Assembly (NCBI GenBank): GCA_027309555.1
Contig: DAIDCO010000003.1
Coordinates: 6,737 to 70,736 of the forward strand
Source: a bacterium
GTDB taxonomy: Archaea > Thermoplasmatota > Thermoplasmata > Lutacidiplasmatales > UBA184
DNA length: 64,000 bases
Direction: 5' to 3'
Shown: positions 10,159 to 63,536 of the stretch, piece after piece
How positions within the stretch are numbered: position 1 is the first letter of the stretch
How the letters are laid out: every line of letters starts with the position of its first letter
Translations under genes and position numbers: made by a program
Notes under the pieces: model-generated
The model's database searches: none
Told to the model about the DNA's origin: nothing
Seen by the model: only the letters and a program-made list of their open reading frames with translations

Positions 10159-10280
10159 TTCGTCCGCCCGGGTGAAGGAGACCGCGAGCCCGGGGCCGTC
10201 CCCTCGGCCCGGGCCGCGTTCGAAGTATCCCGCGACCTCCCCACGCGCCGCGGCGCGAGCGAACGCGTCGAACGGGTCGG

Positions 10281-32952: not shown

Positions 32953-33027
32953 TGGGCCCAGTCGGATTTGAACCGACGACCTCCCGGTTATCAGCCGGGT
33001 GCTCCAGCCAAACTAAGCTATGGGCCC
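32953..33027 (-). tRNA. tRNA-Ile (anticodon GAU)
   Basis: Manual fold: 7-bp acceptor (GGGCCCA/UGGGCCC), D-stem GCUU/GAGC, anticodon stem CCCGG/CCGGG with loop CUGAUAA, T-arm GUCGG-UUCAAAU-CCGAC, discriminator A, and no encoded CCA. Confidence 0.9.
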
Positions 33028-49605: not shown

Positions 49606-49711
49606 ACTACGGGTCGGCCATTCTCGGTGGGAAACTACAACTCGCAGAGGTCTCTTGGTCCCGCAACGGCCCAAGCTCGCGGGCTCGAACTGCCATGAGT
49701 CCGCCATTGAT

Positions 49712-49933: not shown

Positions 49934-50098
49934 GATGAACCACCTTCTGGGACTCGGATTGTATGCGCGGGCGCATATCACCCACACCGGGAGTTCCTGA
50001 AACACCTCCCCCGTCAGCGCATCCGAGCCTGTCGAGGGGGTCCCGTTTCAGGCCCGGCTCCATTCGAGCCCAGCCCCCTTGGAAGCCTACTCGACGTT

Positions 50099-50944
50099 CT
50101 ATCCCTTCCCTGACAGCCTCCGTCTTACCATGACCGCTCCCGACGTCCTTGGTGGCGGTCGTTCAAGCTCGTACTTCCCAGGAATCGCCTCCAGGAGGTC
50201 CCCCAGCTTGCTCTTTCCGAAGGTGCGCGGATCGAAGGCAGGATCGAGCTTCAGCAACGCGTTGCCCAGCTCCGCCAGGTGACAGTATCCGTCCTCCCCG
50301 ACAACTGAGTCAAAGGCCTTATCGATGAGCTCGAAGGCTTCGGTCGAGGCCCGACGACCGCCAGGACCTTCTGTCAGGGCCGAGGCACTCGGGGTCGTCG
50401 CAGAGGAAGGCCTCCTCGACCTCGCAGGCGGCGGGCTCTCTCTGCGAGATCCAATCAGGTTCTCGGTGGCCACGAACACGTTGCATGCGTTTCTGAACGC
50501 GGGAGGGGTCTGGGCCCTACCGATCCCCACGACGAACATGCCAGACTCGCGAAGCCGGGTGGCCAATCTCGTGAAGTCCGAGTCAGACGATACGATGCAA
50601 AATCCTCTGACCCTGCCGCTGTGCAGGATGTCCATGGCATCGATGATCAGCGCGCTATCGGTGGCATTCTTCCCTGAAACCGCGGTGAACTGCTGAACCG
50701 GGACCAGCGCATGCTCCTGAACCGTGGGTCGCCAGGAGGAGAGCTTACCGGAGGCCCAGTCGCCATAGATCCGTCGGATCTCAACTGACCCGTACTTCGC
50801 TGCCTCGGCGAGCATCTCACCGACGAGCCCGGCGGACGCATTGTCTCCATCCACGAGGAAGGCGAGAGGGAGCGATCGAGAATGCGTTACGAGCTCGAGG
50901 GTACCCGGCTCGGCATCGGGAGGCATGGGCCTGGCGATGCACAT
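50099..50944 (-). CDS. NYN (LabA-like PIN) nuclease domain protein with C-terminal OST-HTH/LOTUS domain
   Basis: LAFLVDGDNA (NYN Asp cluster), IVSSDSDF, and a C-terminal OST-HTH-like segment (GYCHLAELGNALLKLDPAFDPRTFGKSKLGDLLEAIP). Confidence 0.6.
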   Translation of the reverse strand: MCIARPMPPDAEPGTLELVTHSRSLPLAFLVDGDNASAGLVGEMLAEAAKYGSVEIRRIYGDWASGKLSSWRPTVQEHALVPVQQFTAVSGKNATDSALIIDAMDILHSGRVRGFCIVSSDSDFTRLATRLRESGMFVVGIGRAQTPPAFRNACNVFVATENLIGSRRESPPPARSRRPSSATTPSASALTEGPGGRRASTEAFELIDKAFDSVVGEDGYCHLAELGNALLKLDPAFDPRTFGKSKLGDLLEAIPGKYELERPPPRTSGAVMVRRRLSGKG

Positions 50945-51172
50945 GAACGTGATGAAACTTACACACCTCGGCGTTGGCCCATGACGGATGGGTCCGGGCC
51001 CGACTCAATTCGGGCCGCCGTCCACGACCTTCTCCGAAGTGGCGTACACGAATAGCTACAACAGTTACTTCTGTACGCGAATGTGAAATATACCTCGGCG
51101 TCGATGATCACCCTCGGGCGAGGCGGGCGGAATCCTGGGTGAGGCGTTGCCGCCCGACCTCGTCCCCGTACC

Positions 51173-53863
51173 ATGAAAGGGAAAGGCGAGACCGGAAGCG
51201 CGACCAAGAGCCGAACGTTCAAGCTCCGAGGCTGGAAACTCCCTCGGGTCGCCAGGGACCGTTGGTGGGCGGCGCCAGTCGCCCTCCTCGTGGTGGCCGC
51301 GATCCTCGCGACCTCGGTCGTCCTCCTCACGGGAGGCACCCGGGTCGTTCAGGAGGAGTGGTCGGCGATCAACCTCTCCCTCGGGTCGAATCCGCTCTCG
51401 CAGCAGCTGAACATCACCTTCGCGAGGGTCAGCTACCTCGACCAGCCCACCCAGTGGAACACGACCGGCTTCCTCAACGCCTCCCTGAGCGCGAACGGAG
51501 CCTGGCTCGACAACACCAGCAGCTACGGGACCCACTACGGGATCGCTCAGGTCAACTCGACCTCGACCGGCACCACGGCGCTCGCCAGCTGGCCGCTCTC
51601 TTCCTACCTCGGCGCGAACGTCAGCTACGCCTTCCTCGACCAGCGGGTCGCGCTCAACGGCACCGGGACCACCTGGCAGCTCGTCCTCTCCGAGGCTCAG
51701 CAGACGGGTCAGGTCTCTACGTCCGGCAACGTCACGAATGGGGCGGCCGGGGCTACCCAGAACGAGGTCTGGGTCCAGGCCTTCTACTCCGCGGGGAACT
51801 TCAGCTTCCTCGCCTACGACTGGGAGGAGAAGCCCGGCGGCTTCCAGACCGTCACCACCTACACCTTCCCCTCGAACGTCGGGGCGCCTCCGCTCCAGTT
51901 CTTCGAGGTCTACGTCTACGCCCAACCCCTCCAGACGGTCGTCAGCATCGTCAACACGACCAACGGAGCCGTGATCGGCTCGACCCCCGCGATGCACCCG
52001 GTCCTCGATGAGAACCTCACGAAGATCGGCTACCTCGGCGACACGCTCACCGCGGCGGCCTCGAGCGTCGACTCAGCGATGATCCTCGACTCCGCGTTCT
52101 TCGTCGACCACAATACCTACGCGAACGCCCCGGGAGCCTCGACCGCCGCGATCCCGATGGTCGCGGGCTCGGTGTCGATCCCCAACGCCGCTCCCTTCGA
52201 CCCGGCGTCCGTGGCCACTCACTGGCTCAATCCGCCGAACTCCCAGAACAGCTACTCGAGTCTCACGGGGTCCCTCTCCGACTTCCCGAGCGTGGTGAAC
52301 TCCTCCTCGTCGGCGAGCGAAACGAGCTCGCTGATCAACGCGACGGCGATCCTGAACTCGACCACGACGGCGAGCGAGGCCGGCGCCGCGGGCACCCTCG
52401 CCACGATCCGCTCCACTCCCGAGGACCAGACGGACGCAGTCAGTTCGACGGCCTACGCGACGACCTGGACTCCCCAGACGATCCAGAGCCAGATCCACTC
52501 CTTCCTGACGAACTACATCTCGGCGAACACCGGGGTCCCGGCCGCCGACATCGAGATCCCGGGCATGCTCGTCTCGAACATCGCCGTCTGGACCCAGTTC
52601 TCGAGCCAAGCGGCGAGCACGATCCACGACTACCTCGCGAGCGCCATTCCCGGGTTCCTCCAGTCGAACAACCTCGCGCTGGTCAACCGGACCACGGGCG
52701 CCATCGACGCGGGCGCCGACATCGGTGAGTTCATGGACCTCTCCACGGGAGCGGTCTATGCGGGTCAGACCAACGACTTCGGTGGGGTATTCGACCCGGT
52801 CGACCACCAGTGGTATGCGAGCGCCGAGGCGGCGGGATTCCCGTCCGGCTCGGGAGTCGGCGCGTCCGGGGCGATCTTCGTCCCCGGGCAGGCCGCGTTC
52901 CTCGGATGGGCCGCGAATGGCGAACCCGAGTTCGGAGTCGGGGGTTGTTTCATCGTCTGTCTCGGCTCGGCGCTCACCGGCGCCGCCTCCGCCGTCTCGA
53001 ACTTCGTCGGCTCCGCCGCGAGCACCGTGAGCAACGCCGTGGGTGGCGTCACGAACACGGTCTCCAACGACGTCATCAAGCCGGTCTCGGGAACCCTCGG
53101 AGGCGACCTCAGCGGCGTCTCGACCGACGTCTCGAAGGCCGTCGACCAGGTGATGCCGTTCTTCGGCGGAACGATCGCGAACATCGGCGGAGCCGTCCAG
53201 GGAACCCTCAGCCACACGCTGAGCGGCATCACGAGCGGGATCGGTTCCGCCGCGAGCGGAGCGGCGGGAGCCATCCTCTCGGGCGTCAACTCGATCTCGA
53301 ACACGATCTACCACGTCGGTGCCGCCGCGGGGTCCGCCATCGGCAGCCTGCCCGGGGAGATCCAGAGCGGGCTCAACGTCGTGGGCAACACCGTGGGAAA
53401 GGTCGTCAGCACCTCCGCGGCTGTTCTGTCGAGCGCCTTCACCACCGCCAGGAACGTGGCGGGTGACGTCGGCAGTGCGATCCTGAACGGCGGCAAGAGC
53501 CTCCTCAGCCTCGCCGGGAACGCCGCCGGCGCCGTGGCCGGCGCGCTCAACACGGTCGGGAGCGCCATCGTGAATGGGGCCTCGGGCGCCCTGAGCTGGG
53601 TCGAGAACGCCTTCGGGACGGCGGGCGCCGACATCATGAACGCGATCAAGGCGATCGGCGGAGCGCTGAATCCGTTCAGTTGGTTCTCGGGATTCTCCTC
53701 GCAGGTCGCCCAGATCCTCGAATACGTCGTGATCGGAGTCGTCGCGTTCGTCCTCGTCTTCGCGATCGTGTTCTTCCTGCACCGTCGGTCGAAGAAGCAC
53801 GGCTCGCGGCAGCGGGGCGGGGAGCGCGGGCGGCACCGCAGCCGACACGCCCACCGGGCGTGA
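51173..53863 (+). CDS. large surface protein with N- and C-terminal TM segments and Gly/Ala/Ser/Val-rich periodic repeats
   Basis: 896 aa. N-terminal TM (WWAAPVALLVVAAILATSVVLL), N-glyc-sequon-rich ectodomain, repeated G-x-A-x-x-V/S-x-x-x-V modules (about aa 600-840), C-terminal TM plus basic tail. Confidence 0.55.
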   Translation: MKGKGETGSATKSRTFKLRGWKLPRVARDRWWAAPVALLVVAAILATSVVLLTGGTRVVQEEWSAINLSLGSNPLSQQLNITFARVSYLDQPTQWNTTGFLNASLSANGAWLDNTSSYGTHYGIAQVNSTSTGTTALASWPLSSYLGANVSYAFLDQRVALNGTGTTWQLVLSEAQQTGQVSTSGNVTNGAAGATQNEVWVQAFYSAGNFSFLAYDWEEKPGGFQTVTTYTFPSNVGAPPLQFFEVYVYAQPLQTVVSIVNTTNGAVIGSTPAMHPVLDENLTKIGYLGDTLTAAASSVDSAMILDSAFFVDHNTYANAPGASTAAIPMVAGSVSIPNAAPFDPASVATHWLNPPNSQNSYSSLTGSLSDFPSVVNSSSSASETSSLINATAILNSTTTASEAGAAGTLATIRSTPEDQTDAVSSTAYATTWTPQTIQSQIHSFLTNYISANTGVPAADIEIPGMLVSNIAVWTQFSSQAASTIHDYLASAIPGFLQSNNLALVNRTTGAIDAGADIGEFMDLSTGAVYAGQTNDFGGVFDPVDHQWYASAEAAGFPSGSGVGASGAIFVPGQAAFLGWAANGEPEFGVGGCFIVCLGSALTGAASAVSNFVGSAASTVSNAVGGVTNTVSNDVIKPVSGTLGGDLSGVSTDVSKAVDQVMPFFGGTIANIGGAVQGTLSHTLSGITSGIGSAASGAAGAILSGVNSISNTIYHVGAAAGSAIGSLPGEIQSGLNVVGNTVGKVVSTSAAVLSSAFTTARNVAGDVGSAILNGGKSLLSLAGNAAGAVAGALNTVGSAIVNGASGALSWVENAFGTAGADIMNAIKAIGGALNPFSWFSGFSSQVAQILEYVVIGVVAFVLVFAIVFFLHRRSKKHGSRQRGGERGRHRSRHAHRA

Positions 53864-53890
53864 GGGCGCCCGGAGGGTCGGTGTTCGGAG

Positions 53891-54379
53891 ATGGCCCAGT
53901 CGAGCAGCCAGGGGAAGCACGCACGAGGTGGAGGATGGAGCGGTATCCTTGGTCTGTTCTTCCTGATCCTGGTCGTCGAACTCGTCCTGGACGTCGTGCT
54001 CCTCCCCGCGGATGTGGTGATCGTCCCGGCGGAGCTGATCGGGGACGCGCTGTTCCTCGCGGTCGGCGTCGGTGGCGCCTTCATGGCGGGCCGGGGGACT
54101 GGAAGGTCGATCCGGCCGCCTCCTCGCTCCTCGCGGTCCCTGCAGGGAAACCGGAAGGCGATCGCGGACTCGGGAGCGGCGCTGGTCCTCGGCTACTGGA
54201 CCTTCGTGGTGGCGATCCTCGCCTTCCAGTGGTGGTTCGCCGTCCACCACCCGATCCTGAACATCCTGACCTTCCCCTTCGAGCTCGTCTTCGACGTCCT
54301 GCTGTTCATGGCGGGAGTCCTGGTCACGCTCTTCGGGGTCTCCCGGAGGTCATCGGATTCCCGGGAGGTCGGCTCGTGA
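53891..54379 (+). CDS. small polytopic membrane protein
   Basis: 162 aa, 4 predicted TM helices. Confidence 0.4.
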   Translation: MAQSSSQGKHARGGGWSGILGLFFLILVVELVLDVVLLPADVVIVPAELIGDALFLAVGVGGAFMAGRGTGRSIRPPPRSSRSLQGNRKAIADSGAALVLGYWTFVVAILAFQWWFAVHHPILNILTFPFELVFDVLLFMAGVLVTLFGVSRRSSDSREVGS

Positions 54380-56103
54380 AGCCCTCCCTCGCGCTCGTCC
54401 TTGTCACCGTTCTGGTGGTCTCGGCGCTGGCCGTGCCGGGTCCGGCGGCCCCGGCGGCCGTCGGGTCCTCCCACGCCGTCGTGACCCCGGCCTCGACCCC
54501 TTCCACGGTGTCCTGGACGGCTTCCGAATACTGCGCGAGCGACGCCCGCCCGGGATTCCTTGGATTCGTGGTGCCGTACTGTCCCGTCGGTGCCGGCTAC
54601 GCCGCACCGCCCGTGACGATGTACAACGTGACGGGGGCGACCACCGGGGTTCCGGTGTGGACGTCCGCGGCGAACAACTCGAGCGGAGAGGTCGTGATCC
54701 TCGCCAACAGCGTGCTCACGCAGCCGACCGCCCAGCCCGTCTACGACTTCCCGACGATGTGGGCCTACCTACCGTACCGTGGGTGGCTCAATCTCACGGC
54801 GGCCAGCTCTCTCGGGACGACTGCGGGAACGCTGGGCTACGACCTCAGCGTCTCCGGCGGCTGCATGGCGTGGGATCCCGCCGAGCACTACTTCCTCGCC
54901 GTCGCGGGTCAGGACAGGGCCAGCGGCAACGGGTGGACGTTCACCTACGCGCCGGGGTCGAGTCCGCTCCCCGGGGGGACGTGGACCAACCGGAGCGGCG
55001 AGGTCATCGGCTGGTCGATGACCAGCTGCGAGATGGCCTGGGACCCCCCGACCCAGGAGATGCTCCTCTACGGGCCCACGCTCGGAGGAACGGGCGCGGA
55101 CTTCTGGTACTGGTCGGGCAACGGCGGTTGGGCGGGGAGTTATCCGACGTCGAGCTACGGGGGCCCTCCCTGTGCCTTCAACGCCACCGTCGCCTACGAC
55201 CCGGTCTCGCAGAAGGTCGTCTTCTTCGGCGGCGACACGGCGGGCTGCACGAGCCAGCCGAGCCCGGTGCTCTCCTACACCTACGCGTGGACCGGGTCCG
55301 TCAGCTGGAGCAACCTGACGTCGAGCCTGACGGTGACTCCGCCCGGGCGCGAGTGGGCGACGTTCTCGACCACGGCCTTCGGGGCCGTCCTGATGGGAGG
55401 CGATGCCTCCCCCACCAATCCGACCGCGGGAGTCCTCAACGACACCTGGCTCTTCGACGGCCAGTGGGTCCCGGAGTCGCTGGCACTCTCGGCAGGGAGC
55501 GGGACGTTCTGCCCCCGCTACGCTGCCTCCGAGGGCTCGCTGAACGCCACCGCCTTCCTCCTGTTCGGCGGCGGGACGACCGGCACGGGAAGCTGTGCCC
55601 CCCAGCCCTTCATCGGCGGTCTCTACGCCCTCAACGACACCTGGACGGTGTCCGGAGTGGCACTCCCGCCCTCGAACCCCCAGGAGAACCAGACGGGGCT
55701 TCCCTGCACCGACGCCCAGCTGAGCTGGACGAACCCGCCGCCTCCCTACGGCCTGTCGCTCGTCAACGACACCGTCTACCTCTACGGAGCCTCGGGCACG
55801 CTCGTTCAGACGATCAGCACCAACGGTCCCACCACCTCGGTGGTGGTCACGGGACTCACCTGCGGTGCCTCCTACACGTTCCGGGTCCGCGGCTGGTTCT
55901 CCGATGGAGCGCCTTCACCGCTCTCGGCCGCTCTCAGCTTCCTGACCGGCAGCGCGGCCGGGAACGGGCAGGGAGGCGGAGGCAACTCGGGAAACGGGGC
56001 GGACCTCACGCTCATCGTGGTCGGCGTGGCCGTGGCGGCCGTCGCGGTCGTGATCGTCGGCCTGTCGTTCCGCCGACGGCGGTCCGGGGGCCGGGAGAGG
56101 TAG
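54376..56103 (+). CDS. secreted Kelch-repeat / FN3-like protein with C-terminal TM anchor
   Basis: GTG overlapping the upstream stop (GTGA). Signal peptide, several W..G/DTW repeats, FN3-like PSNPQEN...SYTFRVRGW, C-terminal TM plus RRRRS. Confidence 0.6.
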   Translation: MKPSLALVLVTVLVVSALAVPGPAAPAAVGSSHAVVTPASTPSTVSWTASEYCASDARPGFLGFVVPYCPVGAGYAAPPVTMYNVTGATTGVPVWTSAANNSSGEVVILANSVLTQPTAQPVYDFPTMWAYLPYRGWLNLTAASSLGTTAGTLGYDLSVSGGCMAWDPAEHYFLAVAGQDRASGNGWTFTYAPGSSPLPGGTWTNRSGEVIGWSMTSCEMAWDPPTQEMLLYGPTLGGTGADFWYWSGNGGWAGSYPTSSYGGPPCAFNATVAYDPVSQKVVFFGGDTAGCTSQPSPVLSYTYAWTGSVSWSNLTSSLTVTPPGREWATFSTTAFGAVLMGGDASPTNPTAGVLNDTWLFDGQWVPESLALSAGSGTFCPRYAASEGSLNATAFLLFGGGTTGTGSCAPQPFIGGLYALNDTWTVSGVALPPSNPQENQTGLPCTDAQLSWTNPPPPYGLSLVNDTVYLYGASGTLVQTISTNGPTTSVVVTGLTCGASYTFRVRGWFSDGAPSPLSAALSFLTGSAAGNGQGGGGNSGNGADLTLIVVGVAVAAVAVVIVGLSFRRRRSGGRER

Positions 56104-56107
56104 GAAG

Positions 56108-57205
56108 ATGGCGCTGTTCGCTTCCGACCCCGTCGAACGCGAGGCCGTCCGCCTCGGCCGGGTCCACGAGGTGCCCGCGGAGATCCACTACTCGAGCGGT
56201 TCCGACCGCTGGTGGTATCACGGCCCGCTCTGGGTGCAGGAGACCCGACCGGTCCACGAGTGGGAGTTCAGCCCCGCGCTCCGGGACCCCCGAAACCGGC
56301 TCGTTCTCCGACTCATCAAGAAGGGCTGGACCGACGAGCGGATCGCCGCCGAGCTGGTCTCCGAGGTCCGGCTGACGGAACCGCTGACTCCCGAAGAGGA
56401 GCGCGCCGCGCTGCGTAGCGCGACCGTCGTGGTACGGGAGGTCCGCCGGGCTTCGGGACGCGCCCACGAGCCCCACGTCCTGCGAATCTACGGCCTCAAG
56501 AACGCCTCGAAGACCGACGAGCGGATCCTGGTGACCATCGACCAGGACCTGGTCCACGAGGCGCCGATGGTCCCGTTCACTCGGACCGAGAAGGGAAGCC
56601 GACGCCTCCAGTTCGCCATGATGGCGGCGATGGCGATCATCGACGCGATCTTCCTCTACGCGATGGTCTCCTTCGTCAACGCCGGACCGTCGTTTGCCGT
56701 CAACGCGGGACAGATCCAGCAGCTTTCCCTCTCCTTCGGCCAGCTGATCGCCCTTCCCTCGGTCATCCTCGTGACCTACGTCCTGATGGCACGGAGAACG
56801 CTCGTTCTCGACCTCGAGATCCAACCCGTCGTCGAGGACCTCGAGGACACCCACAGCGAGGCCGTCTACCTCGTCAACTCGGAGAAGACCCCGGCGTCGA
56901 CGTATCTGTCGCGGACGTTCCGGCTCGATCCGGCCGCCGTCCGGAGCCTGACCGAGGAAATTGCGCGGTTCCAGTCCGACACGATCGCGAACCTGCAGGA
57001 ACAGTCCCGCTCGCTGCGGACCGAGCTCGACTCGGCGAAGGTGCTCGGCGGCGAGGCGTGGAGCCAGTCGACGGACCTCAAGGCGCTCGACCAGCGCCAC
57101 CTCCCGTCGATCCACCACGATCCTCTCGGGACGTGGGTCCTCGTCGGGATCGTCGCCACGGTGGTCGGCGTGGTCGTCTGGGCGGCCATGGCCGCGGGGG
57201 TGTGA
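56108..57205 (+). CDS. membrane protein, unknown function
   Basis: 365 aa. Soluble N-domain, central TM helices, C-terminal TM. Confidence 0.45.
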   Translation: MALFASDPVEREAVRLGRVHEVPAEIHYSSGSDRWWYHGPLWVQETRPVHEWEFSPALRDPRNRLVLRLIKKGWTDERIAAELVSEVRLTEPLTPEEERAALRSATVVVREVRRASGRAHEPHVLRIYGLKNASKTDERILVTIDQDLVHEAPMVPFTRTEKGSRRLQFAMMAAMAIIDAIFLYAMVSFVNAGPSFAVNAGQIQQLSLSFGQLIALPSVILVTYVLMARRTLVLDLEIQPVVEDLEDTHSEAVYLVNSEKTPASTYLSRTFRLDPAAVRSLTEEIARFQSDTIANLQEQSRSLRTELDSAKVLGGEAWSQSTDLKALDQRHLPSIHHDPLGTWVLVGIVATVVGVVVWAAMAAGV

Positions 57206-57208
57206 CCG

Positions 57209-57916
57209 ATGCCTCGGGAAACCTTCGTCGGGGTCGTCCTCGTGGCGGTCCTGACCGTTCTCTCGCTCGGCTCCCCGCTCCTGGGGACGGCTCGCGCGGC
57301 CGGCTCCTCCGCCTCCGCGGTCGAGTACTATCGGCTCGACCCCGGCACGCCCACCGAGGAGTCCTCCACCTACGCTCTTCCGATCTTCGTCGTCGCCGAG
57401 CCGGTCGGTTCCGTGGCGAACCGGTCCGTGACTCAGCAGGCGTGGCAGGGTCTCCAGGTCGTCGAGGTGGGCACTCCCACCGTCCCGTTCCTCAACTGGT
57501 CGGTGCCCGACTGGTCGACGGGAGCGTTCGAGCTGGCCCTCTCGCTGACAGCCGAGGAGGTCCATGCCATCGTGGGAGGGCAGGCGATCCTCGCCCTCAA
57601 CTCCTCGATCCGGGTCGGTTCTACGGTCGTCGGCGCCGCCGGGATCATCGACGGCGCGGTCCTCGACTCGGCCACCGTCGTCGGCTCCTGGTGGAGCGCG
57701 GTCTTCGGCATGTCGACACCGCCTCCCGACCCCACGTTGTCCTCGCTCCCCGGCATCCTCGACGACCTCGCTTGGTTCGGAGCCTCCACCGCGGGCCGTG
57801 CGACGTATGCCGCCACGACCATCGTCGCCGTCCTGCTCTACCTCTGGGAGGGCCACAAGCTCGCCCGGGCCAAGCTGTCGGGCGACCCGTCCCGGTCCCG
57901 TCGGGAGGCAATCTGA
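57209..57916 (+). CDS. secreted/membrane protein, unknown function
   Basis: 235 aa. N-terminal signal/TM and C-terminal TM. Confidence 0.45.
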   Translation: MPRETFVGVVLVAVLTVLSLGSPLLGTARAAGSSASAVEYYRLDPGTPTEESSTYALPIFVVAEPVGSVANRSVTQQAWQGLQVVEVGTPTVPFLNWSVPDWSTGAFELALSLTAEEVHAIVGGQAILALNSSIRVGSTVVGAAGIIDGAVLDSATVVGSWWSAVFGMSTPPPDPTLSSLPGILDDLAWFGASTAGRATYAATTIVAVLLYLWEGHKLARAKLSGDPSRSRREAI

Positions 57917-58206
57917 TGGCGCTCGGAGCGGACCTCCTGCTCGCCGTCGCCTTCCTCGCCGCCGTCGGGCTCCTCTTCACGATCGCGACCGCGCTGAAGA
58001 ACTGGGTCTTCGAGCTCAGCCCCCGCGAGTGGGGCTACTCGGCGATCCTGACGTTCAGCCTCGGCGTCCTCGCCGCCGCCTACCTCGACGGCGACGGGAC
58101 CCTCGAGCTTCTCGCGATGGTGCCGATCTTCCTCGCGGTCGTCTGGTGGGTCGCAAGGCTCTGGCGGCGCCACCAGGGCCGGGCGGCCCGCGGGACGGAG
58201 ACGTAG
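57916..58206 (+). CDS. small membrane protein
   Basis: ATG overlaps the upstream stop (TGATG). 3 TM helices. Confidence 0.4.
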   Translation: MALGADLLLAVAFLAAVGLLFTIATALKNWVFELSPREWGYSAILTFSLGVLAAAYLDGDGTLELLAMVPIFLAVVWWVARLWRRHQGRAARGTET

Positions 58207-58207
58207 C

Positions 58208-58969
58208 ATGGCGTCCATCGCTCCCAGCCGGGACCGGCCGCCGACCGTCCTCGACACCGGGGAACGCTGGCGCCTTGCGTTCTGGGAGAAGCACAGCCAT
58301 GCGATCCAGTCGGACCTTCTCGAGATCACCGGCTGGTTGGGCCGCTCCCCGGACCGGGAGGTGCTGACCGAGGCCGGTGGCAAGGTCCGGTTCGTCCGGG
58401 CCGGGACGGCTCCGGCCAGCGTGCTCTTCCGGGTCCCTCGGGAAGGCACCCGTGCCTACCAGAACTGGGAGTGGTGCCTCGGCTACCTCCGGATGGAGCA
58501 GAGCCGCCGATGGCTCGTCCGGCAGCAGGTCGAGGAGGCGGAACGGGCTCTCCAGGACGCGGAGGAGGAGCTGAAGGCACTCCGCGGCCGCCATCGGAAA
58601 CTCGATTCCCGTCTCCGGTCGCTGGCGGAGCGCGCGCGTGCCGGCGCCCGCTCGGGTTCCGGGCAGCAGCCGAACGGGCCGCTGGCGCAACTCCAGGCCG
58701 GTATGGCCGAGGCCCGGGAGAATCTCGCGGTCTACCGGGTCGCCGAGCGGCATCGGGACACGATCCGGCTCCGACTCGAAGGGTATCGGGACCACCTCGT
58801 CCCGCGAGTCTACCCGGGGCTCTGGGCCCGGGTCAACGCGTTCCTCGACATGCAGGCGCTCTCGGTGGCCAACGTGGCGAGCGAGGAGTTCCGCCGCCAC
58901 CCGCAGCTCGCCGCCCGGTGGGCCGACCGCAGGGAACAGGCTCTCGCGGAGGATGAGAGTCTTGACTGA
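58208..58969 (+). CDS. hypothetical soluble protein with central coiled coil
   Basis: 253 aa. QQVEEAERALQDAEEELKALRGRHRKLDSRLRSLAERA. Confidence 0.45.
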   Translation: MASIAPSRDRPPTVLDTGERWRLAFWEKHSHAIQSDLLEITGWLGRSPDREVLTEAGGKVRFVRAGTAPASVLFRVPREGTRAYQNWEWCLGYLRMEQSRRWLVRQQVEEAERALQDAEEELKALRGRHRKLDSRLRSLAERARAGARSGSGQQPNGPLAQLQAGMAEARENLAVYRVAERHRDTIRLRLEGYRDHLVPRVYPGLWARVNAFLDMQALSVANVASEEFRRHPQLAARWADRREQALAEDESLD

Positions 58970-59387
58970 CCCCGTCACCTCTCCGCCTTCCGCGGAGGAG
59001 TTCAAGCGGATCCCATCCGGAAAACGCCTCTACGGACTGCTCCTCTCCGCCACCGACGAGATCACCCTCAACCACGCAACGCCCGGGGTCTCGTTCTCCT
59101 ATCCGATCCTCGGCGAGCTCGCGAGCGACCTCCTGGTCCTCGCGGAGACCGAGCTCGAGAAGGGTTCCAGCGACTCGTCGACCCAGCTCCTCGCCGAGTG
59201 GAAGTCGCTTGACGAGCATCTCGGCTCGGCAGAGGCGCGAAACTGGGAGGTCGACGCTCCGGAGGCCCGGATCCGCCTGACCTGTCTCAAGCGCTACCTG
59301 CTCCGCTCCGGCCTCATGGCGCAGCGCGAGGCGGAGGCGGACGCGCCGGACCGGTATCTCGTCCGTGAGGAGGTTCCCGGAGCATGA
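58953..59387 (+). CDS. hypothetical protein
   Basis: 144 aa. Start overlaps the upstream gene end. Acidic helical protein. Confidence 0.4.
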   Translation: MRVLTDPVTSPPSAEEFKRIPSGKRLYGLLLSATDEITLNHATPGVSFSYPILGELASDLLVLAETELEKGSSDSSTQLLAEWKSLDEHLGSAEARNWEVDAPEARIRLTCLKRYLLRSGLMAQREAEADAPDRYLVREEVPGA

Positions 59388-60496
59388 GCGATTGGGTCCC
59401 GCCCCTCGCCCACATGATCCTCGACGACCGGGTCGACCGTGGAGTGTCTCCGACGAGGGCGCTGGAGCGAGCCGAACACTACCGGCGCTGGCTCGAGACA
59501 CTACCCTCCGCGCACGACCGGCTGACCTGTCCGGAGGAGGCGAAGATCCGCCTCTGGCCCGGGAGCCTCTGCTTCCACAAGGGACAGGCGACCGTGGTGG
59601 TGGGAAGCCAGGGGAAGGGAAAGACGAACCTCCTCGCCTTCCTCATCGAGCGGGCGATCCGGCACCGGCCGGAGTGGGAGATCTACAGCAACATCCCGTT
59701 CCCCTGGGACGAGGAACTGGCGGGCATCGTTCCTCCTCCGCCGCGTCTCCACTCGATCTCGACGATGTCGGAGCTGCTCCGGGGCATCGCGCAGACCGTC
59801 CTCGCGGGCCGGGAGCCGGCGGTCGTCATTGACGAGATGGACCAGGTGGCGACGAGCCACGAGTGGATGACGGAGCGGAGCGAGTCGTGGACGAAGTTCC
59901 TGTTCGTGGAGCGGCACCTGAGGGTCTGGGGGCCGATCCTCGCCTACCATGTCCGGGAGCACGTGCCGCTGCCGCTCCGGGCGAACGCCGCCCTGCGCGG
60001 AAGCTACCTGAGGGTCATCGTTCGGCACGGGAAGCACCAGTTCGTCCGGGCAGAGGACCCGACGTATTTCGGAGGCATCTGGGAGAGCGTGCTGCCGTTC
60101 CTGACGCTCGGGCTGCGGGGGTTCGAGATCGACGTCGACATGCGGGAACTGCAGACGGTGGCGCGGGGAAGCCACCGGAGGGTCGCGGAACTCACCCTGC
60201 AGTACCTCGACGACCTCGACGGGCGCCGGAAGGAGGAAGAAACCACCCGTCGCGACGTGCCCCGGAAGTCGGACCTGCCTTCCCCCGAGGTCGCTCATGC
60301 CCTGGTCGAAGCGGAGGTCATCCGTCGTCTCGAGAGCGGGGCTACTCACCGGCAGATCGTCGAAGCGACCGGCCTCTCGAAGTACATGGTCGCGGGCGTC
60401 TCCGTCCGATGGAGGGCGTCGCGCCTGCGGCAGCAGGGGCCGGCTCCCGATTCCCCCGGGGGCGCCCGGTGCCCGGTGCCCGGGAGCCCCCCTTGA
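59384..60496 (+). CDS. P-loop NTPase with C-terminal HTH-like domain
   Basis: Walker A VVVGSQGKGKTNLL, Walker B AVVIDEMDQ, C-terminal THRQIVEATGLSKYMVAG. Confidence 0.6.
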   Translation: MSDWVPPLAHMILDDRVDRGVSPTRALERAEHYRRWLETLPSAHDRLTCPEEAKIRLWPGSLCFHKGQATVVVGSQGKGKTNLLAFLIERAIRHRPEWEIYSNIPFPWDEELAGIVPPPPRLHSISTMSELLRGIAQTVLAGREPAVVIDEMDQVATSHEWMTERSESWTKFLFVERHLRVWGPILAYHVREHVPLPLRANAALRGSYLRVIVRHGKHQFVRAEDPTYFGGIWESVLPFLTLGLRGFEIDVDMRELQTVARGSHRRVAELTLQYLDDLDGRRKEEETTRRDVPRKSDLPSPEVAHALVEAEVIRRLESGATHRQIVEATGLSKYMVAGVSVRWRASRLRQQGPAPDSPGGARCPVPGSPP

Positions 60497-60577
60497 CGCT
60501 CTCTCTAGGACGCGCGCGCGCGAGGGGAGGAATCGTTCCGGTTCTTCCGGGAAGGAGTCCGGTCCGGGGAGGCCGTC

Positions 60578-61261
60578 ATGTCGATTGACTGGGGCGGAGT
60601 GGCGGGGAGCTTCCTTACCGCCTTCGTTCTGGTCGTCCCCTTCGTCGTCACCCTGCGGCCCCGTGCGCTGAGTCTGGCCGGAGGAGCGACCTTCGTCGCC
60701 CTCGCCGCCCTCCTGGTGGAGGTCCTGGTCCAGAACGCCCTCCAGCCACTCTACGCTGCCGCGGTCGTCCTCGTCTTCGTGGCGCCGCTGACCGAGGAGT
60801 TGCTCAAGTTCCTCGACTCGGGTCTCACCGGGGCGAACTACGCCTCCGCTGCCGGGGCGGGGATCGGCTTCGCCGCCACCGAGAACGCCCTCTACTTCCT
60901 CGTCGCGTGGGGGGAGCCCCTCTCCTACCTCGTGGCCCTGATCGCCATCCGAACGGTCACGGACCCGCTGCTCCACGTAACGGCGACGACGCTCACCACC
61001 CTCTCCTGGCACGGCCGGCCCTGGGGCCTACCGGCCGGCATCGCCCTCCATGCCCTCTGGAACACGGTGGCACTGATCGAGGTCTACATCGACCCGACCG
61101 TCGGCCTCCTCCTGCTGGGCGCGGCCGGGTTCGCGGTTCTCGGGATCCTCCTCCTGCTGCGGCGCAACCCGGAAGTCCGGGAAACGCTGACCGACCGCTG
61201 GAGGATGAACCCGTGGTCGGGGTCGCTGCTCCCGGCGGGAGCGGCCGGAGAAGCAACATGA
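60578..61261 (+). CDS. CPBP-family (CAAX/Abi-like) intramembrane protease-like protein
   Basis: 6 or more TM helices, EELLKF (EExxx[RK]-like) and HALWN (HxxxN) motifs. Confidence 0.4.
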   Translation: MSIDWGGVAGSFLTAFVLVVPFVVTLRPRALSLAGGATFVALAALLVEVLVQNALQPLYAAAVVLVFVAPLTEELLKFLDSGLTGANYASAAGAGIGFAATENALYFLVAWGEPLSYLVALIAIRTVTDPLLHVTATTLTTLSWHGRPWGLPAGIALHALWNTVALIEVYIDPTVGLLLLGAAGFAVLGILLLLRRNPEVRETLTDRWRMNPWSGSLLPAGAAGEAT

Positions 61262-61632
61262 CCGAGGAGAGGTGGTCGGGCCACGTGGGGCACCTCGAGG
61301 AGGGCGGGCTGCACGGCTGGTGCGCGAGTTGCCCTCCCGAGGAACGACACCGGGCGATCGAGCGGACGGTCCGGGCCGATGGCTACGCGACCGCGACGCG
61401 CCGGCTGAACTTCCTCGCGAACGTGGCGAACCGACACGACAACGAGCACCTGCACCGCGTCGCCCGGGAAGACCGCGAGTGGACCGAGGACCGGGAGAAG
61501 GAGGAGCGCGAGAACGAGGACCGGCGTCGGGAGCCGGGGGAGTTCCACCGCGTCGAGGGATACCGCAAGGCGGTCGGCGACCGGGTTCGACCCCACGTCG
61601 CCCGGAACCCGCGACGGAGGAGGCAACCTTGA
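61258..61632 (+). CDS. small protein, paralog A, with Arg-rich C-terminal motif
   Basis: ATGA overlap with the upstream gene. WCASCPPEERH near the N-terminus. C-terminus GEFHRVEGYRKAVGDRVRPHVARNPRRRRQP. Confidence 0.45.
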   Translation: MTEERWSGHVGHLEEGGLHGWCASCPPEERHRAIERTVRADGYATATRRLNFLANVANRHDNEHLHRVAREDREWTEDREKEERENEDRRREPGEFHRVEGYRKAVGDRVRPHVARNPRRRRQP

Positions 61633-61982
61633 CCGAGGAGGAATACGTGGTCACGGCCCGGACTCCCAGTATGAGTGCCCCGGGCTTCTACGTCTTCCAC
61701 TCGAAGAAGGTGGCCGAGCACTGGGCGGCGTCCATTCGGAGAGGAGGGGGCGAGGCCAGAGTCCGCCCGAAGTCGCCGGAGTATTCGGTCGAGGCCGGGA
61801 ACCGCCCGGACTACGACGCGGTCCGGACGGAGGGGTCGAGAGCGAAGGAAGAGGACGAAGTTCCCGAGGAGGAGGACCGACCCAAGAGGAGCGGCGAGTT
61901 CCATCGGGTCGATGGCTACCGCAAGGAAGACGGAGCCCAAGTCCGGGCGCACCTCGCGAGGAACCCGCGGAGGCGGAGGTGA
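61629..61982 (+). CDS. small protein, paralog B, with the same Arg-rich C-terminal motif
   Basis: TTG start overlapping the upstream stop (TTGA). C-terminus GEFHRVDGYRKEDGAQVRAHLARNPRRRR. Confidence 0.4.
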   Translation: MTEEEYVVTARTPSMSAPGFYVFHSKKVAEHWAASIRRGGGEARVRPKSPEYSVEAGNRPDYDAVRTEGSRAKEEDEVPEEEDRPKRSGEFHRVDGYRKEDGAQVRAHLARNPRRRR

Positions 61983-62248
61983 AGCGCGGTGCCACTCCGG
62001 TCTGGGCCTTCGTGGTCGGAGCGCTATTCGTTCTGGCCGGCTTGTGGGCCCTCCTCAACGGGATCGCGTGCGCGGCCCTCCTGAACTCGGTTGGGCCATC
62101 GATACCCTCCGGTCCCTCTCAGTTCTGCGGGACCTACGAGTGGGGCGGAGCGCTGCTGCTAATGCTCGGCATCGCCCTGCCGATCGGCGTGGCACTGGCA
62201 TCCCGTCACGGACGCGGGGCTTCGGGACGGGCGATCCGGAGCCGATGA
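61979..62248 (+). CDS. small membrane protein
   Basis: GTGA overlap. Two TM helices with a Cys pair. Confidence 0.4.
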   Translation: MKRGATPVWAFVVGALFVLAGLWALLNGIACAALLNSVGPSIPSGPSQFCGTYEWGGALLLMLGIALPIGVALASRHGRGASGRAIRSR

Positions 62249-62514
62249 CCGAGCGTCGAGCGTCGAGCGCCGACCGACTCACAGGGTTCTGGGACCCGTG
62301 TGGACCTATTGCGAGCGGCCTGCGGCCTGCCGAGTCGGACTTCGAGGCGGCCATCCTGGGCGCCCTCACCGATAGTGTCCCCCCCCGAGAGGCGCTGGCG
62401 TGGGTTGCCCGGTGGCAGACCCGGCGGGGAGGGCATGAGCGGCGGGGTTCGGCTCGAAGGCGATCGGGCACTCATCCGAAGGCACAGCGGCCGTTGAAGG
62501 AGGGCAGACGATGA
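62245..62514 (+). CDS. small hypothetical protein
   Basis: ATGA overlaps at both ends. 89 aa. Confidence 0.35.
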   Translation: MTERRASSADRLTGFWDPCGPIASGLRPAESDFEAAILGALTDSVPPREALAWVARWQTRRGGHERRGSARRRSGTHPKAQRPLKEGRR

Positions 62515-63212
62515 CCGGTGGGACCACGGCGCTCTACGTGCGAGTGAGTTCCGAGGAGCAAGACCTAGTCGGACAGGAACGAGAGTTGCGCGGTTACGCC
62601 GAGGCCAGGAACTGGACGGTCGTCGGCAGCTACGCCGAGAAGGTCACGGGGACCGGGAAGGTCGAGCGGAAGGCGTACGAACGTCTCCTGCGGGACGCGG
62701 GGGAACGGAAGTTCGATCACCTGGTGGTCTGGGCGCTGGACCGGTTCAGTCGAGAGGAGACGTTCACGAAGGCCACGCAAGCGATCCTCGACCTGGAGGG
62801 GCTCGGTATCCGGTTTCACTCGCTCAAGGAACCGATGTTGGACACCCCCGAGGACGGCCGGCCGAACCTCGGAAGAGACGTGCTGCTTGCACTGCTTCCG
62901 GTCATTGCGAGCTTCGAGTCGAAGCGTCGGTCGGAACGGGTCCGTGTGGCGATGCGGGAGATCAAGGAGGGACGACGGCGGACGCGTAGCGGGCGTCCGC
63001 CGGGTCGGCCCGTCCGGGCGACGCCCGAGAAGGTGTCGGCGATCGTTCGCCTGAAGGCCCAAGGGCTGACGTGGAGGGTCATCGCCCAACGAGTCGGGCT
63101 GCCGAGGGGGACCTGTGCCAACGTCGCTTCCCGGGTGCGCCGGGGGCTATTAGAAAACTCTCTCGATACGAAAGGGTCGGATCGGCCTTCGACGGACCCG
63201 GTCCCTACGTAA
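62511..63212 (+). CDS. serine recombinase (resolvase/invertase family)
   Basis: ALYVRVSSEEQ, LDRFSRE motif. Paralog of the recombinase at 1200..1907. Confidence 0.8.
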   Translation: MTGGTTALYVRVSSEEQDLVGQERELRGYAEARNWTVVGSYAEKVTGTGKVERKAYERLLRDAGERKFDHLVVWALDRFSREETFTKATQAILDLEGLGIRFHSLKEPMLDTPEDGRPNLGRDVLLALLPVIASFESKRRSERVRVAMREIKEGRRRTRSGRPPGRPVRATPEKVSAIVRLKAQGLTWRVIAQRVGLPRGTCANVASRVRRGLLENSLDTKGSDRPSTDPVPT

Positions 63213-63536
63213 AGTGCCCGTTTCGGACCCCGTTCGTAAGAGCCTAATCAGCGGGCAGCTTTGTCGGGTGTCTCCAGAGGGGACTGACTGTCGATTCAAT
63301 TCTCCATCGTTCAGAGGGCCGGTCCTCTCAGTTCTTGAGGCCAGGGTCCGGATCGATGAGCAGCCCGCGAGTCGGTGTAGCCGCGAGCGAGTCTTTCGAC
63401 TTACGGCCACAGACTTGATTCCGTTAGCCTGGAGCCTCTCCAAACGGGTTAGCTCTTAACCACGGCTTTGAAACCATCCACCCTGGGAAGTCCGAAATAC
63501 GCGAGTCGCGTGCCGGGAAGCGAGGATCAGCACACA

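What the first reader, a model, noticed from the sequence alone, without database searches (positions are those of the whole stretch)
61258..61982. Tandem small paralogs sharing a C-terminal GEFHRV[ED]GYRK...VR.H.ARNPRRRR motif
Two adjacent, translationally coupled genes of about 120 aa have divergent N-termini, one with a C-x-x-C...H cluster. They share a nearly identical 30-aa tail that ends in a run of four or five Arg. An Arg-rich tail suggests nucleic-acid binding or nucleoid association. The duplication inside a mobile-looking operon is reminiscent of small capsid, DNA-packaging or anti-defence proteins. I do not recognise the motif.
Basis: seen in the sequence. Interest (0 to 1): 0.55.

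Follow-up and report, generated by a model that had tools for sequence, protein, structure and literature searches.

The report
Shared basic tail on unrelated small proteins
Two neighbouring small genes of an uncultured Thermoplasmata archaeon encode unrelated proteins that end in the same conserved, arginine-rich 36-residue tail. The tail is a portable module of unknown function, carried by an 11-12 kb mobile-looking, membrane-protein-rich gene cluster, and it is absent from every family database searched.

Summary
Gene A (61258..61632, 124 aa) and gene B (61629..61982, 117 aa) overlap by 4 nt. Both are coding and conserved, and they share only a C-terminal tail (22/29 identical, E 3e-12).

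They are not whole-gene paralogs. A has a helical N-domain distantly related to Pfam DUF5771. B has a small beta-beta-alpha-beta N-domain.

The shared part is a roughly 36-aa module: EDRRRE-G-x2-HRVxGYxR-loop-VRxHLARNPRRRR. In related Thermoplasmata contigs it ends at least six unrelated N-domain families. These proteins always sit just downstream of a PrsW-like membrane protease, inside a syntenic ~11-kb one-strand cluster of glycoprotein-like and membrane proteins plus a P-loop ATPase.

The cluster looks like an integrated mobile, possibly virus-like, element. It occurs in two divergent copies in single genomes, is mosaic, and has four different flanks right after a serine recombinase gene.

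The hairpin core of the tail (V.V.GY.RKDGT.V..H.R..P) also occurs in at least 884 mostly small, mostly signal-peptide-bearing bacterial hypothetical proteins. No Pfam, NCBIfam, PHROG, PADLOC or PDB family matches it.

Function is inferred only. Most likely the tail is a polyanion-binding (nucleic acid or membrane) anchor or address tag that brings different small domains to one place.

The parts
61258..61632 (+). Gene A, 124 aa. It has a helical N-domain (residues ~17-90; W6, H9, H12, GGLHGWC, C25, R30, H31, DGY motif), an acidic linker and the tail module.
   Evidence: Translation. 55 homologues in Thermoplasmata MAGs and metagenomes. 9/23 family members hit Pfam DUF5771, best E 2.2e-6, but the window protein itself does not. 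AF2 pLDDT 68.8, with helices 27-41, 43-56 and 63-90 and strands 96-99 and 113-116.
61516..61629 (+). Tail module of A (residues 87-124): EDRRREPGEFHRVEGYRKAVGDRVRPHVARNPRRRRQP.
   Evidence: Alignment A3. Invariant positions are D2, G8, H11, V13, G21, V24, R25, H27, A29, N31 and P32. The local profile search scores it at E 2.6e-17.
61629..61982 (+). Gene B, 117 aa. It has a small beta-beta-alpha-beta N-domain (residues 1-48), a disordered acidic linker and the tail module.
   Evidence: Translation. 11 homologues. AF2 gives pLDDT 81-93 for residues 1-50 and low confidence for the rest. TTG/GTG start conserved behind GGAGGAGG.
61869..61979 (+). Tail module of B (residues 81-117): EEDRPKRSGEFHRVDGYRKEDGAQVRAHLARNPRRRR.
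   Evidence: E 2.3e-18.
60578..61261 (+). PrsW-like polytopic membrane metalloprotease, 227 aa. Its stop overlaps A's start (ATGA). It lies directly upstream of an A-type gene in 21 of the 22 related loci that hold DNA upstream of A.
   Evidence: Pfam PF13367, E 2.3e-10, 40.8 bits against a cut-off of 23.5. Five hydrophobic segments; EELLKF, ATENALY and HALWN motifs seen in the sequence. Synteny.
59384..60496 (+). P-loop ATPase, 370 aa (Walker A GSQGKGKT, Walker B VVIDEMD), with a weak C-terminal HTH.
   Evidence: Weak hits to AAA_22 (E 0.0018) and phrog_1979 (1.5e-5). Alignment A6. No PDB, phage or IMG/VR relatives.
51173..59387 (+). Eight upstream genes of the same one-strand cluster. 51173..53863: 896 aa, N- and C-terminal TM segments, many N-x-S/T sites, Gly/Ser-rich region. 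53891..54379: 162 aa, 4-5 TM. 54376..56103: 575 aa, signal peptide, fn3, C-terminal TM and RRRR. 56108..57205: 365 aa. 57209..57916: 235 aa. 57916..58206: 96 aa, TM. 58208..58969: 253 aa, basic. 58953..59387: 144 aa, acidic.
   Evidence: GC3 frame plot and start codons. Sequences and TM scan. Only weak Pfam/PHROG hits. Syntenic in 12 or more Thermoplasmata MAGs.
61979..62248 (+). 89-aa protein with two TM segments. Its GTG start overlaps B's stop.
   Evidence: Conserved in L004, L005 and L027.
62245..62514 (+). 89-aa basic protein (MTERRASSADRL...), with ATGA overlaps at both ends. It is absent from L004.
   Evidence: Called as a gene in L010 and L011. Gap in the L004 alignment.
62511..63212 (+). 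Small serine recombinase: N-terminal resolvase catalytic domain (YVRVSSEEQ) and C-terminal HTH.
   Evidence: Pfam PF00239, E 4.6e-27; HTH_23, E 1e-4.
63213..63227 (.). Right-hand junction. Shared sequence (...TAAAGTGCCCGTT) ends here, and four different flanking sequences follow in the window, L011, L004 and L005.

Best explanation
SHOWN. A and B are two unrelated small cytoplasmic proteins, with no signal peptide or TM segment. Each ends in the same portable ~36-residue module. The module consists of an acidic-then-basic linker (EDRRRE), an invariant Gly, a predicted amphipathic beta-hairpin (H-R-V-x-G-Y-x-R / loop with invariant G / V-R-x-H) with two invariant His, and a C-terminal A-R-N-P-R-R-R-R run. 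The module is under strong protein-level selection. It has been joined to at least six unrelated N-domain families. It is always encoded immediately after a PrsW-like protease gene, in a conserved ~11-kb membrane-protein plus ATPase cluster of Thermoplasmata that behaves like an integrated mobile element. An A-type protein is the constant member. One or two accessory tail proteins (B, C, D or E types) fill a variable slot behind it.

INFERRED. The tail acts as a common anchor or address tag. Its basic face and poly-Arg end bind a polyanionic target, most likely the element's nucleic acid and alternatively the inner face of the membrane where the cluster's many membrane proteins sit. Different small N-domains are thereby delivered to one and the same place. 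The acidic linker in front may mask the tail until the target is met. The N-domain of A, whose tail-less relative lies next to terminase genes in a head-tailed viral contig, would be the resident DNA-associated factor, and the accessory proteins would ride on the same tag.
For: Module and shuffling. N-domains fall into families A, B, C/C', D, E and F, with no cross-similarity at E<0.01. Selection: 11 synonymous against 7 replacement differences in 27 codons in the window, and 17 synonymous against 6 replacement in L006. Charge: tails +4 to +8, N-parts mostly -4 to +3. Hairpin: AF2 strands 96-99 and 113-116 in A. Fixed position after PrsW and the variable slot. Mobile-element behaviour: two divergent copies in one MAG, seen twice; mosaic identity; four different right flanks 10-15 nt after the recombinase stop; contig L021 consists of exactly the cluster. 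Virus link of A's N-domain: L017 from IMG/VR, DUF5771-like gene two genes upstream of TerL. Tails within a locus usually share the loop-length form: about 20 distinct two-tail loci match, and the C/C' family carries a short tail in L033 next to a short-tailed A and a long tail in L036 and L047-L055 next to a long-tailed A.
Against: No binding was tested and no homologue has a known function. The bacterial relatives of the hairpin core are mostly secreted (89 of 117 listed have a signal-peptide-like N-terminus), so the ancestral ligand is unlikely to be intracellular nucleic acid. AF2 confidence in the tail is low (pLDDT 55-67), and in B the tail was modelled as a helix. Arg richness is partly expected in a 69% GC genome. 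The RRRR codons also supply the GGAGG ribosome-binding motif of the next gene, so part of their conservation may be at DNA level. The virus-like nature of the cluster is circumstantial: no capsid, replication or integrase hallmark beyond a small resolvase, and no relatives in IMG/VR or in phage records. One intact locus (L058) mixes a short and a long tail.
Confidence: 0.4

Rival explanations
1. Docking peptide for a cluster-encoded protein. The tail would be recognised by the adjacent PrsW-like protease (processing or regulated proteolysis) or by the ATPase (loading into a particle or vesicle). This would resemble the C-terminal cargo-loading peptides of encapsulin cargo proteins.
For: The tail genes are strictly adjacent to, and translationally coupled with, the PrsW-like gene in every locus examined. 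The tail sits at the extreme C-terminus on diverse N-domains. The hairpin has a conserved hydrophobic face (invariant V13, V24 and an aromatic residue), which suits a protein contact.
Against: PrsW and ATPase sequence identity does not track the short or long tail form. Known PrsW substrates are membrane anti-sigma factors, whereas A and B have no TM segment. No shell or capsid protein was detected. Tail-less A relatives occur near an ATPase that hits the same PHROG (L024), so the ATPase link does not need the tail.
Confidence: 0.2
2. Oligomerisation module. Tails of A and its accessory partner would pair hairpin-to-hairpin, possibly bridged by the four invariant His through a metal ion, to build hetero-oligomers.
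For: There are two or three tail proteins per locus in most lineages. The loop form usually matches within a locus. The hairpin is amphipathic with two invariant His. Many bacterial relatives carry the motif in tandem pairs or arrays.
Against: Loci with A as the only tail protein are common (L001/2, L030, L034, L035, L039). A mixed-form locus exists (L058). A partner tail is not closest in sequence to the A tail of its own locus. Many bacterial copies have Tyr in place of the His.
Confidence: 0.15
3. Pro-peptide model. The acidic linker would neutralise a cationic ~30-aa hairpin peptide that is cut off, with the CPBP/PrsW-type protease serving as processing or immunity factor, and that then acts as a toxin or antimicrobial peptide. 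The small secreted bacterial relatives would be the same kind of peptide.
For: An anionic stretch directly precedes a cationic C-terminal peptide. A membrane protease of the PrsW family is the neighbour. The bacterial relatives are 40-85-aa proteins made of a signal peptide plus a cationic motif.
Against: A and B have no export signal. Their N-domains are folded, conserved and, for A, also exist on their own, which does not fit a disposable leader. No cleavage motif or transporter was identified.
Confidence: 0.07
4. The similarity has no function of its own. It would be a by-product of recent gene conversion or of a DNA-level element such as a recombination site or ribosome-binding region.
For: The RRRR codons double as the GGAGG motif for the next gene.
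Against: Synonymous differences are frequent, with 74% nt identity against 74-81% amino-acid identity. The module is conserved across loci only 62-80% identical in DNA. A profile built from archaeal tails alone finds bacterial proteins at E 1e-4 to 1e-10 against 1.84 billion sequences.
Confidence: 0.02

Closest known systems
Unnamed family of small bacterial 'hypothetical proteins' carrying one to six copies of V-x-V-x-G-Y-x-R-K-D-G-T-x-V-x-x-H-x-R-x-x-P
   Same: The hairpin core is the same: V, G-Y, basic residue, D/N-G, V and H at the same spacing, often followed by A-K-N-P-x-R. Proteins of this kind were found with a profile built from archaeal tails only (E 1e-10 to 7e-4 against 1.84e9 proteins). 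At least 884 were found with the combined profile.
   Different: The bacterial proteins mostly have a signal peptide and are 40-85 aa. The motif is often in tandem and not necessarily C-terminal. They lack the EDRRRE linker and the terminal RRRR. The family has no name, no Pfam or NCBIfam model, no paper in the held library, and no known function.
Arginine-rich terminal tails of viral core or capsid proteins, e.g. the C-terminal domain of hepatitis B virus core protein (from general knowledge, not tested)
   Same: A short, terminal, Arg-dense segment attached to a folded domain, encoded on a mobile or viral genome. The proposed role, electrostatic binding of nucleic acid, is the same.
   Different: There is no sequence relationship. 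Here the Arg run follows a conserved structured hairpin with invariant His, Val and Gly. The carriers are several different small non-capsid domains. Binding has not been shown.
Encapsulin cargo-loading peptides (from general knowledge)
   Same: A short conserved peptide at the extreme C-terminus, shared by unrelated cargo domains that are encoded next to each other.
   Different: No HK97-fold shell gene or any capsid-like protein was detected in the cluster. The sequence motif is different.
Pfam DUF5771 (PF19075)
   Same: A's N-domain family shares the GGL-x-GW ... R-x-x-A ... DGYA-x-x-x-RRL pattern. 9 of 23 members hit the model (best E 2.2e-6), and P0070 carries the precomputed annotation.
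   Different: The window protein itself gives no hit even at E<=10. Only one relative passes the gathering score. DUF5771 has no known function and does not include the tail.
Structural gene module of pleolipoviruses (Halorubrum pleomorphic virus 1: VP3, VP4, ORF6, ORF7, VP8 ATPase)
   Same: The gene content and order are comparable: a small polytopic membrane protein, a signal-peptide glycoprotein with a C-terminal anchor, further TM proteins, then a ~340-370-aa P-loop ATPase. All genes are on one strand of a 7-17-kb element.
   Different: No significant sequence similarity: hhalign of the ATPase against VP8 gives probability 1.5%, and tblastn against phage and archaeal-virus records finds nothing. 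No Rep gene is present. Pleolipoviruses have no PrsW gene and no tail proteins.

Membership tests
Pfam DUF5771 (N-domain of A) | A score at or above the Pfam gathering threshold (26.2 bits) against PF19075 | tested here: inconclusive
   Window A gives no hit at E<=10. 9/23 family members hit the model. Only P0054 (28.3 bits) passes the cut-off, and P0052 scores 25.5 bits.
Unnamed bacterial GY-x-RKDGT-x-V hairpin-motif proteins | A significant profile match over the hairpin core (V, GY, R/K, D/N-G, V, H at fixed spacing) | tested here: met
   The archaeal-only profile A3 retrieves single-copy bacterial proteins at E 5e-5 to 7e-4 and a six-repeat protein at 1e-10 against 1.84e9 sequences. Invariant columns in the joint alignment are V, Y, G and V.
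Unnamed bacterial GY-x-RKDGT-x-V hairpin-motif proteins | An N-terminal signal peptide, implying an extracytoplasmic location | tested here: not met
   A and B have no hydrophobic N-terminal segment. 89/117 bacterial members have one.
Arginine-rich nucleic-acid-binding tails | High density of Arg in a terminal segment | tested here: met
   Tail net charge is +6 for A and +4 for B, and each tail ends in RRRR.
Arginine-rich nucleic-acid-binding tails | Demonstrated binding to DNA or RNA | not testable with these tools
   This needs EMSA or anisotropy with purified protein.
PrsW family intramembrane metalloprotease (neighbour 60578..61261) | A Pfam PF13367 match above the gathering score, with a polytopic membrane topology | tested here: met
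   40.8 bits against a cut-off of 23.5. Five hydrophobic segments; EE and H-x-x-x-N motifs visible in the sequence.
Serine recombinase (62511..63212) | An N-terminal resolvase catalytic domain with the R-V-S-x-x-x-Q serine motif | tested here: met
   PF00239, E 4.6e-27. YVRVSSEEQ in the sequence.
Pleolipoviridae-type provirus (for the cluster) | Detectable homology of the ATPase or spike protein to pleolipovirus VP8 or VP4 | tested here: not met
   hhalign probability is 1.5% against HRPV-1 VP8. tblastn of the ATPase against 50,697 phage and archaeal-virus records gives no match.
Encapsulin cargo-loading system | An HK97-fold shell protein encoded beside the cargo genes | tested here: not met
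   No capsid or encapsulin family among the Pfam or PHROG hits of any cluster protein.
Known anti-phage defence systems (PADLOC) | A match of A, B or neighbours to a defence-system model | tested here: not met
   Only non-significant hits, best E 8e-4 for the P-loop region of the ATPase.

The most novel reading that the evidence does not exclude
The ~11-kb cluster may be an undescribed family of enveloped, pleomorphic virus-like (or vesicle-forming) elements of Thermoplasmata, a group in which very few proviruses have been detected. The tail would then be its cargo-loading address tag: a C-terminal hairpin plus poly-Arg signal that loads interchangeable small effector proteins, with or onto the genome, into the particle for delivery to the next host.
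Probability: 0.15. Interest if true: 0.75.

Novelty: new variant of a known kind. Interest (0 to 1): 0.5.

Why it matters
If the tail is a real targeting or anchoring module, it is a compact, transferable tag of about 36 residues that evolution has grafted repeatedly onto different small proteins. That makes it easy to test and possibly useful as a tool.

It also flags an unannotated but widespread hairpin motif in hundreds of small bacterial secreted proteins.

Finally, it flags a conserved, multi-copy, mosaic 11-kb element in Thermoplasmata. A 2026 survey found only 30 provirus regions in Thermoplasmatota and Nanobdellota together (PMC13573593). Standard viral catalogues (IMG/VR) do not contain this element.

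Tried and rejected
**Family and structure databases**
- Pfam, PHROGs, NCBIfam and PADLOC scans of A and B gave no family.
- A PDB sequence search with the tail profile gave only a 7-residue LAKNPRR match in ribosomal protein L13, E 1.8, which I treat as chance.

**Cluster identity**
- For the ATPase, the PDB searches gave nothing below E 0.05, and the phage-record tblastn and IMG/VR scan gave no match. Comparison with HRPV-1 VP8 was not significant. Pleolipovirus membership is therefore rejected, and only the analogy in gene order is kept.

**DNA-level features**
- A search for att-like direct or inverted repeats around the cluster found nothing convincing.
- Contig L021 has no terminal overlap, so there is no evidence of a circular form.
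- Rfam finds only tRNA-Ile at 32953..33027 in the window.

**Ideas considered**
- Strict tail-to-tail co-evolution is rejected as a rule. A partner tail is not the nearest relative of the A tail in its own locus, and L058 mixes the two forms. It is kept only as a tendency.
- The resemblance of A-R-N-P to the R-x-G-R-N-P-x-T-G beta-arm motif of HU/IHF was recalled from memory. I rejected it because in HU the motif lies at the hairpin tip, whereas here it follows the second strand. It was not tested.
- The HEAT-like VR..VA.NPNTP repeat proteins among the profile hits (P0074, P0093) are judged false positives.

**Literature**
- Searches for DUF5771, for the motif strings and for PrsW with archaeal viruses found nothing.
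- The one relevant paper holding PF19075 is a review of giant-virus genomes, but the passage could not be retrieved.
Full report
**1.

- Gene A is 61258..61632 (ATG, 124 aa). Gene B is 61629..61982 (117 aa). Both are on the + strand.
- B begins at a TTG that overlaps A's TGA stop (cTTGAcc). Homologous loci use TTG or GTG at exactly this place. In all of them it lies 6-13 nt behind GGAGGAGG, which is formed by the Arg codons at the end of A.
- BLASTP aligns only the tails: 22/29 identical, E 3e-12.
- Both frames show the codon-position GC pattern of real genes in this 69% GC sequence: 0.76/0.50/0.88 for A and 0.66/0.52/0.83 for B.
- A has 55 protein homologues and B has 11. All come from metagenomes or MAGs, and the named ones are labelled Thermoplasmata archaeon.
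- The window is 99.9% identical to contigs of the MAGs GCA_027310855.1 and GCA_027309545.1.

**2. These are not duplicated genes but two different proteins with one shared module**

- Outside the tail there is no similarity between A and B.
- AlphaFold models (moderate confidence) differ in fold.
  - A has three helices (27-41, 43-56, 63-90) followed by a hairpin (strands 96-99 and 113-116).
  - B has a confident beta-beta-alpha-beta N-domain (residues 1-48, pLDDT 81-93) followed by a disordered acidic stretch.
  - Neither model matches a solved structure at E<=0.001.
- A's N-domain family is a distant relative of Pfam DUF5771. Nine of 23 members hit the model, best E 2.2e-6. The window protein itself does not register.
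- Tail-less 82-106-aa versions of A's N-domain exist. One lies in an IMG/VR contig two genes upstream of a large terminase. Another lies in element L024/L025, near an ATPase that hits the same PHROG as the window's ATPase.

**3. The shared part is a module of about 36 residues**

- Consensus: EDRRRE-x-G-x-x-H-R-V-x-G-Y-x-R-x-D-G-x-x-V-R-x-H-L-A-R-N-P-R-R-R-R (alignment A3).
- Eleven positions are invariant: D2, G8, H11, V13, G21, V24, R25, H27, A29, N31 and P32.
- There are two loop-length forms: short (GYRK-x-x-G) and long (GFER-x-VEGR-x-E).
- The module lies at or within a few residues of the C-terminus. It carries a net charge of +4 to +8 behind a mostly acidic N-part.
- Selection acts on the protein.
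  - Between A and B in the window, 27 tail codons contain 9 identical codons, 11 synonymous differences and 7 replacements.
  - In locus L006, the two tails have 7 identical codons, 17 synonymous differences and 6 replacements.
  - This excludes recent gene conversion or a DNA-level repeat.

**4. The module is portable**

I searched a profile of the archaeal tails against 1.84 billion representative proteins, and surveyed genome and metagenome contigs. The same tail was found on at least six N-domain families that show no similarity to each other at E<0.01:

| Type | N-domain |
|---|---|
| A | DUF5771-like, helical |
| B | small beta-beta-alpha-beta |
| C/C' | helical, 142-187 aa |
| D | MAWR..VW..GGNGV |
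| E | 192 aa |
| F | represented by P0069 |

Only the two copies in A and B occur in the whole 64-kb window.

**5. The genomic context is fixed**

- In 21 of the 22 related loci that hold DNA upstream of the A-type gene, A directly follows a PrsW-like membrane protease gene. The window copy hits Pfam PF13367 at E 2.3e-10. The one exception is L041, the most divergent A relative (48% identity), where no PrsW match was found.
- The slot behind A is variable.
  - B in the window, L004, L027 and L044.
  - B plus C in L005.
  - C in L020-23, L028-L029, L031-L032 and L043.
  - C' in L033, L036 and L047-L059.
  - D in L006-8 and L038.
  - E in L018/L019.
  - A tail-less membrane protein in L001/L002. 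In L030, L034, L035 and L039, A is likewise the only tail protein found.
  - Sources.
- PrsW and A are the end of a syntenic block of about 11 kb, all on one strand. In the window it spans 51173..61982. Its genes, in order, are:
  - an 896-aa protein with terminal TM segments, many N-x-S/T sites and a Gly/Ser-rich region;
  - a 162-aa polytopic membrane protein;
  - a 575-aa protein with signal peptide, fn3 domain, C-terminal anchor and RRRR;
  - three more membrane proteins;
  - a basic 253-aa protein and an acidic 144-aa protein;
  - a 370-aa P-loop ATPase;
  - PrsW, then the tail proteins.
- In the window and some relatives, an 89-aa TM protein, an 89-aa basic protein and a small serine recombinase follow. 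All of these are translationally coupled.

**6. The block behaves like a mobile element, but its kind is not established**

Evidence for mobility:
- It is syntenic in at least 12 Thermoplasmata species-level MAGs.
- Two divergent copies sit in the same genome, and this is seen twice. In L027/L028 the 575-aa protein is 93% versus 34% identical to the window's.
- Identity to a relative is mosaic: 91.6% over most of the block, but 72% or unalignable around the 144-aa and ATPase genes.
- Shared sequence stops 10-15 nt after the recombinase stop codon. Four different flanks follow in four contigs.
- Metagenome contig L021 (10,896 bp) begins 19 nt before the first gene and ends 133 nt after the last tail gene.

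Limits of the evidence:
- The gene order recalls the structural module of pleolipoviruses. However, the ATPase shows no significant similarity to HRPV-1 VP8.
- There are no relatives in phage records or in IMG/VR.
- No capsid, replication or defence family was detected.
- I therefore call it an integrated, possibly virus-like element by inference only. Its left end was not determined.

**7. The hairpin core is much more widespread than the archaeal tail**

- The archaeal-only profile retrieves bacterial proteins with one to six copies of V-x-V-x-G-Y-x-R-K-D-G-T-x-V-x-x-H-x-R-x-x-P. Some continue with A-K-N-P-x-R.
- A combined profile finds at least 884 proteins. Those listed are 32-84 aa, 89 of 117 have a signal-peptide-like N-terminus, and the few that carry a name are all called hypothetical.
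- No Pfam or NCBIfam model covers them. No paper in the held library contains the motif strings. Only one phage, recorded under two accessions, carries it.
- The archaeal tail is thus a cytoplasmic, C-terminal, linker-and-poly-Arg-equipped variant of an unannotated motif whose function is unknown.

**8. Mechanism (inferred)**

The anatomy is an amphipathic hairpin with a conserved hydrophobic face and a basic face, two invariant His, a terminal Arg run and an acidic linker in front. It sits on interchangeable small domains next to many membrane proteins on a mobile element. This fits best with a common anchor or address tag that binds a polyanionic target. The target would be nucleic acid of the element or the inner membrane face, and the tag would co-localise the N-domains there (confidence 0.4).

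Rival explanations:
- a docking peptide for the PrsW-like protease or the ATPase (0.2);
- a tail-tail oligomerisation module (0.15);
- a cationic peptide released from an acidic pro-region (0.07);
- a non-functional by-product (0.02), already contradicted.

Tails within one locus usually share the loop form. About 20 distinct two-tail loci match. The C/C' family carries a short tail next to a short-tailed A in L033, and a long tail next to a long-tailed A in L036 and others. This hints at a shared partner or mutual contact. It is only a tendency, for three reasons:
- L058 is mixed.
- A partner tail is not closest to the A tail of its own locus.
- The loci are not phylogenetically independent.

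**9. Verdict**

The feature is real, conserved and not described in any library searched. The "paralog" reading needs correcting to "shared portable tail". The nucleic-acid-binding idea is plausible but unproven. Interest is moderate: this is a new variant of the known theme of basic terminal tails or targeting peptides, with a testable module and a possibly new element family behind it.

Noticed in passing
window 61617-61631 and 61962-61981: The AGG/CGG Arg codons of each tail's RRRR run form the GGAGG Shine-Dalgarno-like motif just upstream of the next gene's start (A->B: cgacggaggaggcaaccTTG; B->TM gene: cggaggcggagGTG). Part of the conservation of the Arg run could therefore be a translational-coupling constraint.
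   Followed up: partly
window 62245-62514: An 89-aa basic protein gene (MTERRASSADRL...) sits between the small TM gene and the recombinase gene, with ATGA overlaps on both sides. It is called as a gene in L010 and L011 but is missing from the otherwise collinear L004.
   Followed up: partly
window 44000-51000: A low-GC (0.60-0.64) island lies just upstream of the cluster. It holds a GMT-wHTH protein (44459..45565), a DUF5131 protein (45545..46273, -), a type IIG-like N6-methylase/Eco57I protein (46397..49294) and a NYN + OST-HTH/LOTUS protein (50099..50944, -). The NYN gene is also linked to the cluster in L001/L002 and L034, but there it lies downstream and on the same strand.
   Followed up: partly
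L017 1-20255 (IMGVR_UViG_3300009506_000107): This head-tailed viral contig has an extreme GC skew of +0.40 to +0.46 along 20 kb. Its identified genes, including the terminase and portal-sized ORFs, lie on the + strand. It carries the tail-less DUF5771-like gene (10001..10321) two genes upstream of the large terminase.
   Followed up: no
window 58893-60142 versus L004: The region is mosaic. Most of the cluster is 91.6% identical in DNA to L004, but the 144-aa gene region does not align and the ATPase gene is only 72% identical. This suggests recombination between element lineages.
   Followed up: no
L020 12700-15100; L023 4169-5229: The flanks of related cluster copies hold ubiquitin-like conjugation or defence-type genes. 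L020 has BubE, a ThiF/E1-like gene and Multi_ubiq. L023 has a YukD-like gene plus a proteasome-like protein.
   Followed up: no
L029 (CAVRCP010000021.1) and L035 (JBAWFD010000098.1): The same Thermoplasmata-type cluster sits on contigs binned into a 'Methanobacteriaceae' MAG and a 'Gammaproteobacteria' MAG. In L029, every cluster protein has the same or nearly the same identity to the window's as in the Thermoplasmata locus L028. These are probably mis-binned contigs rather than transfers.
   Followed up: no
L030 and L037 (OY970259.1, both ends of a 2.18-Mb chromosome record): Two copies of the cluster lie at the two ends of one chromosome record, so they are neighbours if the record is circular. 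The L037 copy shows frameshifts in A and in its partner gene. These are either decay or long-read homopolymer errors.
   Followed up: no
window 63230-63530: About 300 nt of lower-GC sequence follow the recombinase junction. The codon-position GC plot shows no coding signal there. It has no Rfam match and its function is unknown.
   Followed up: partly
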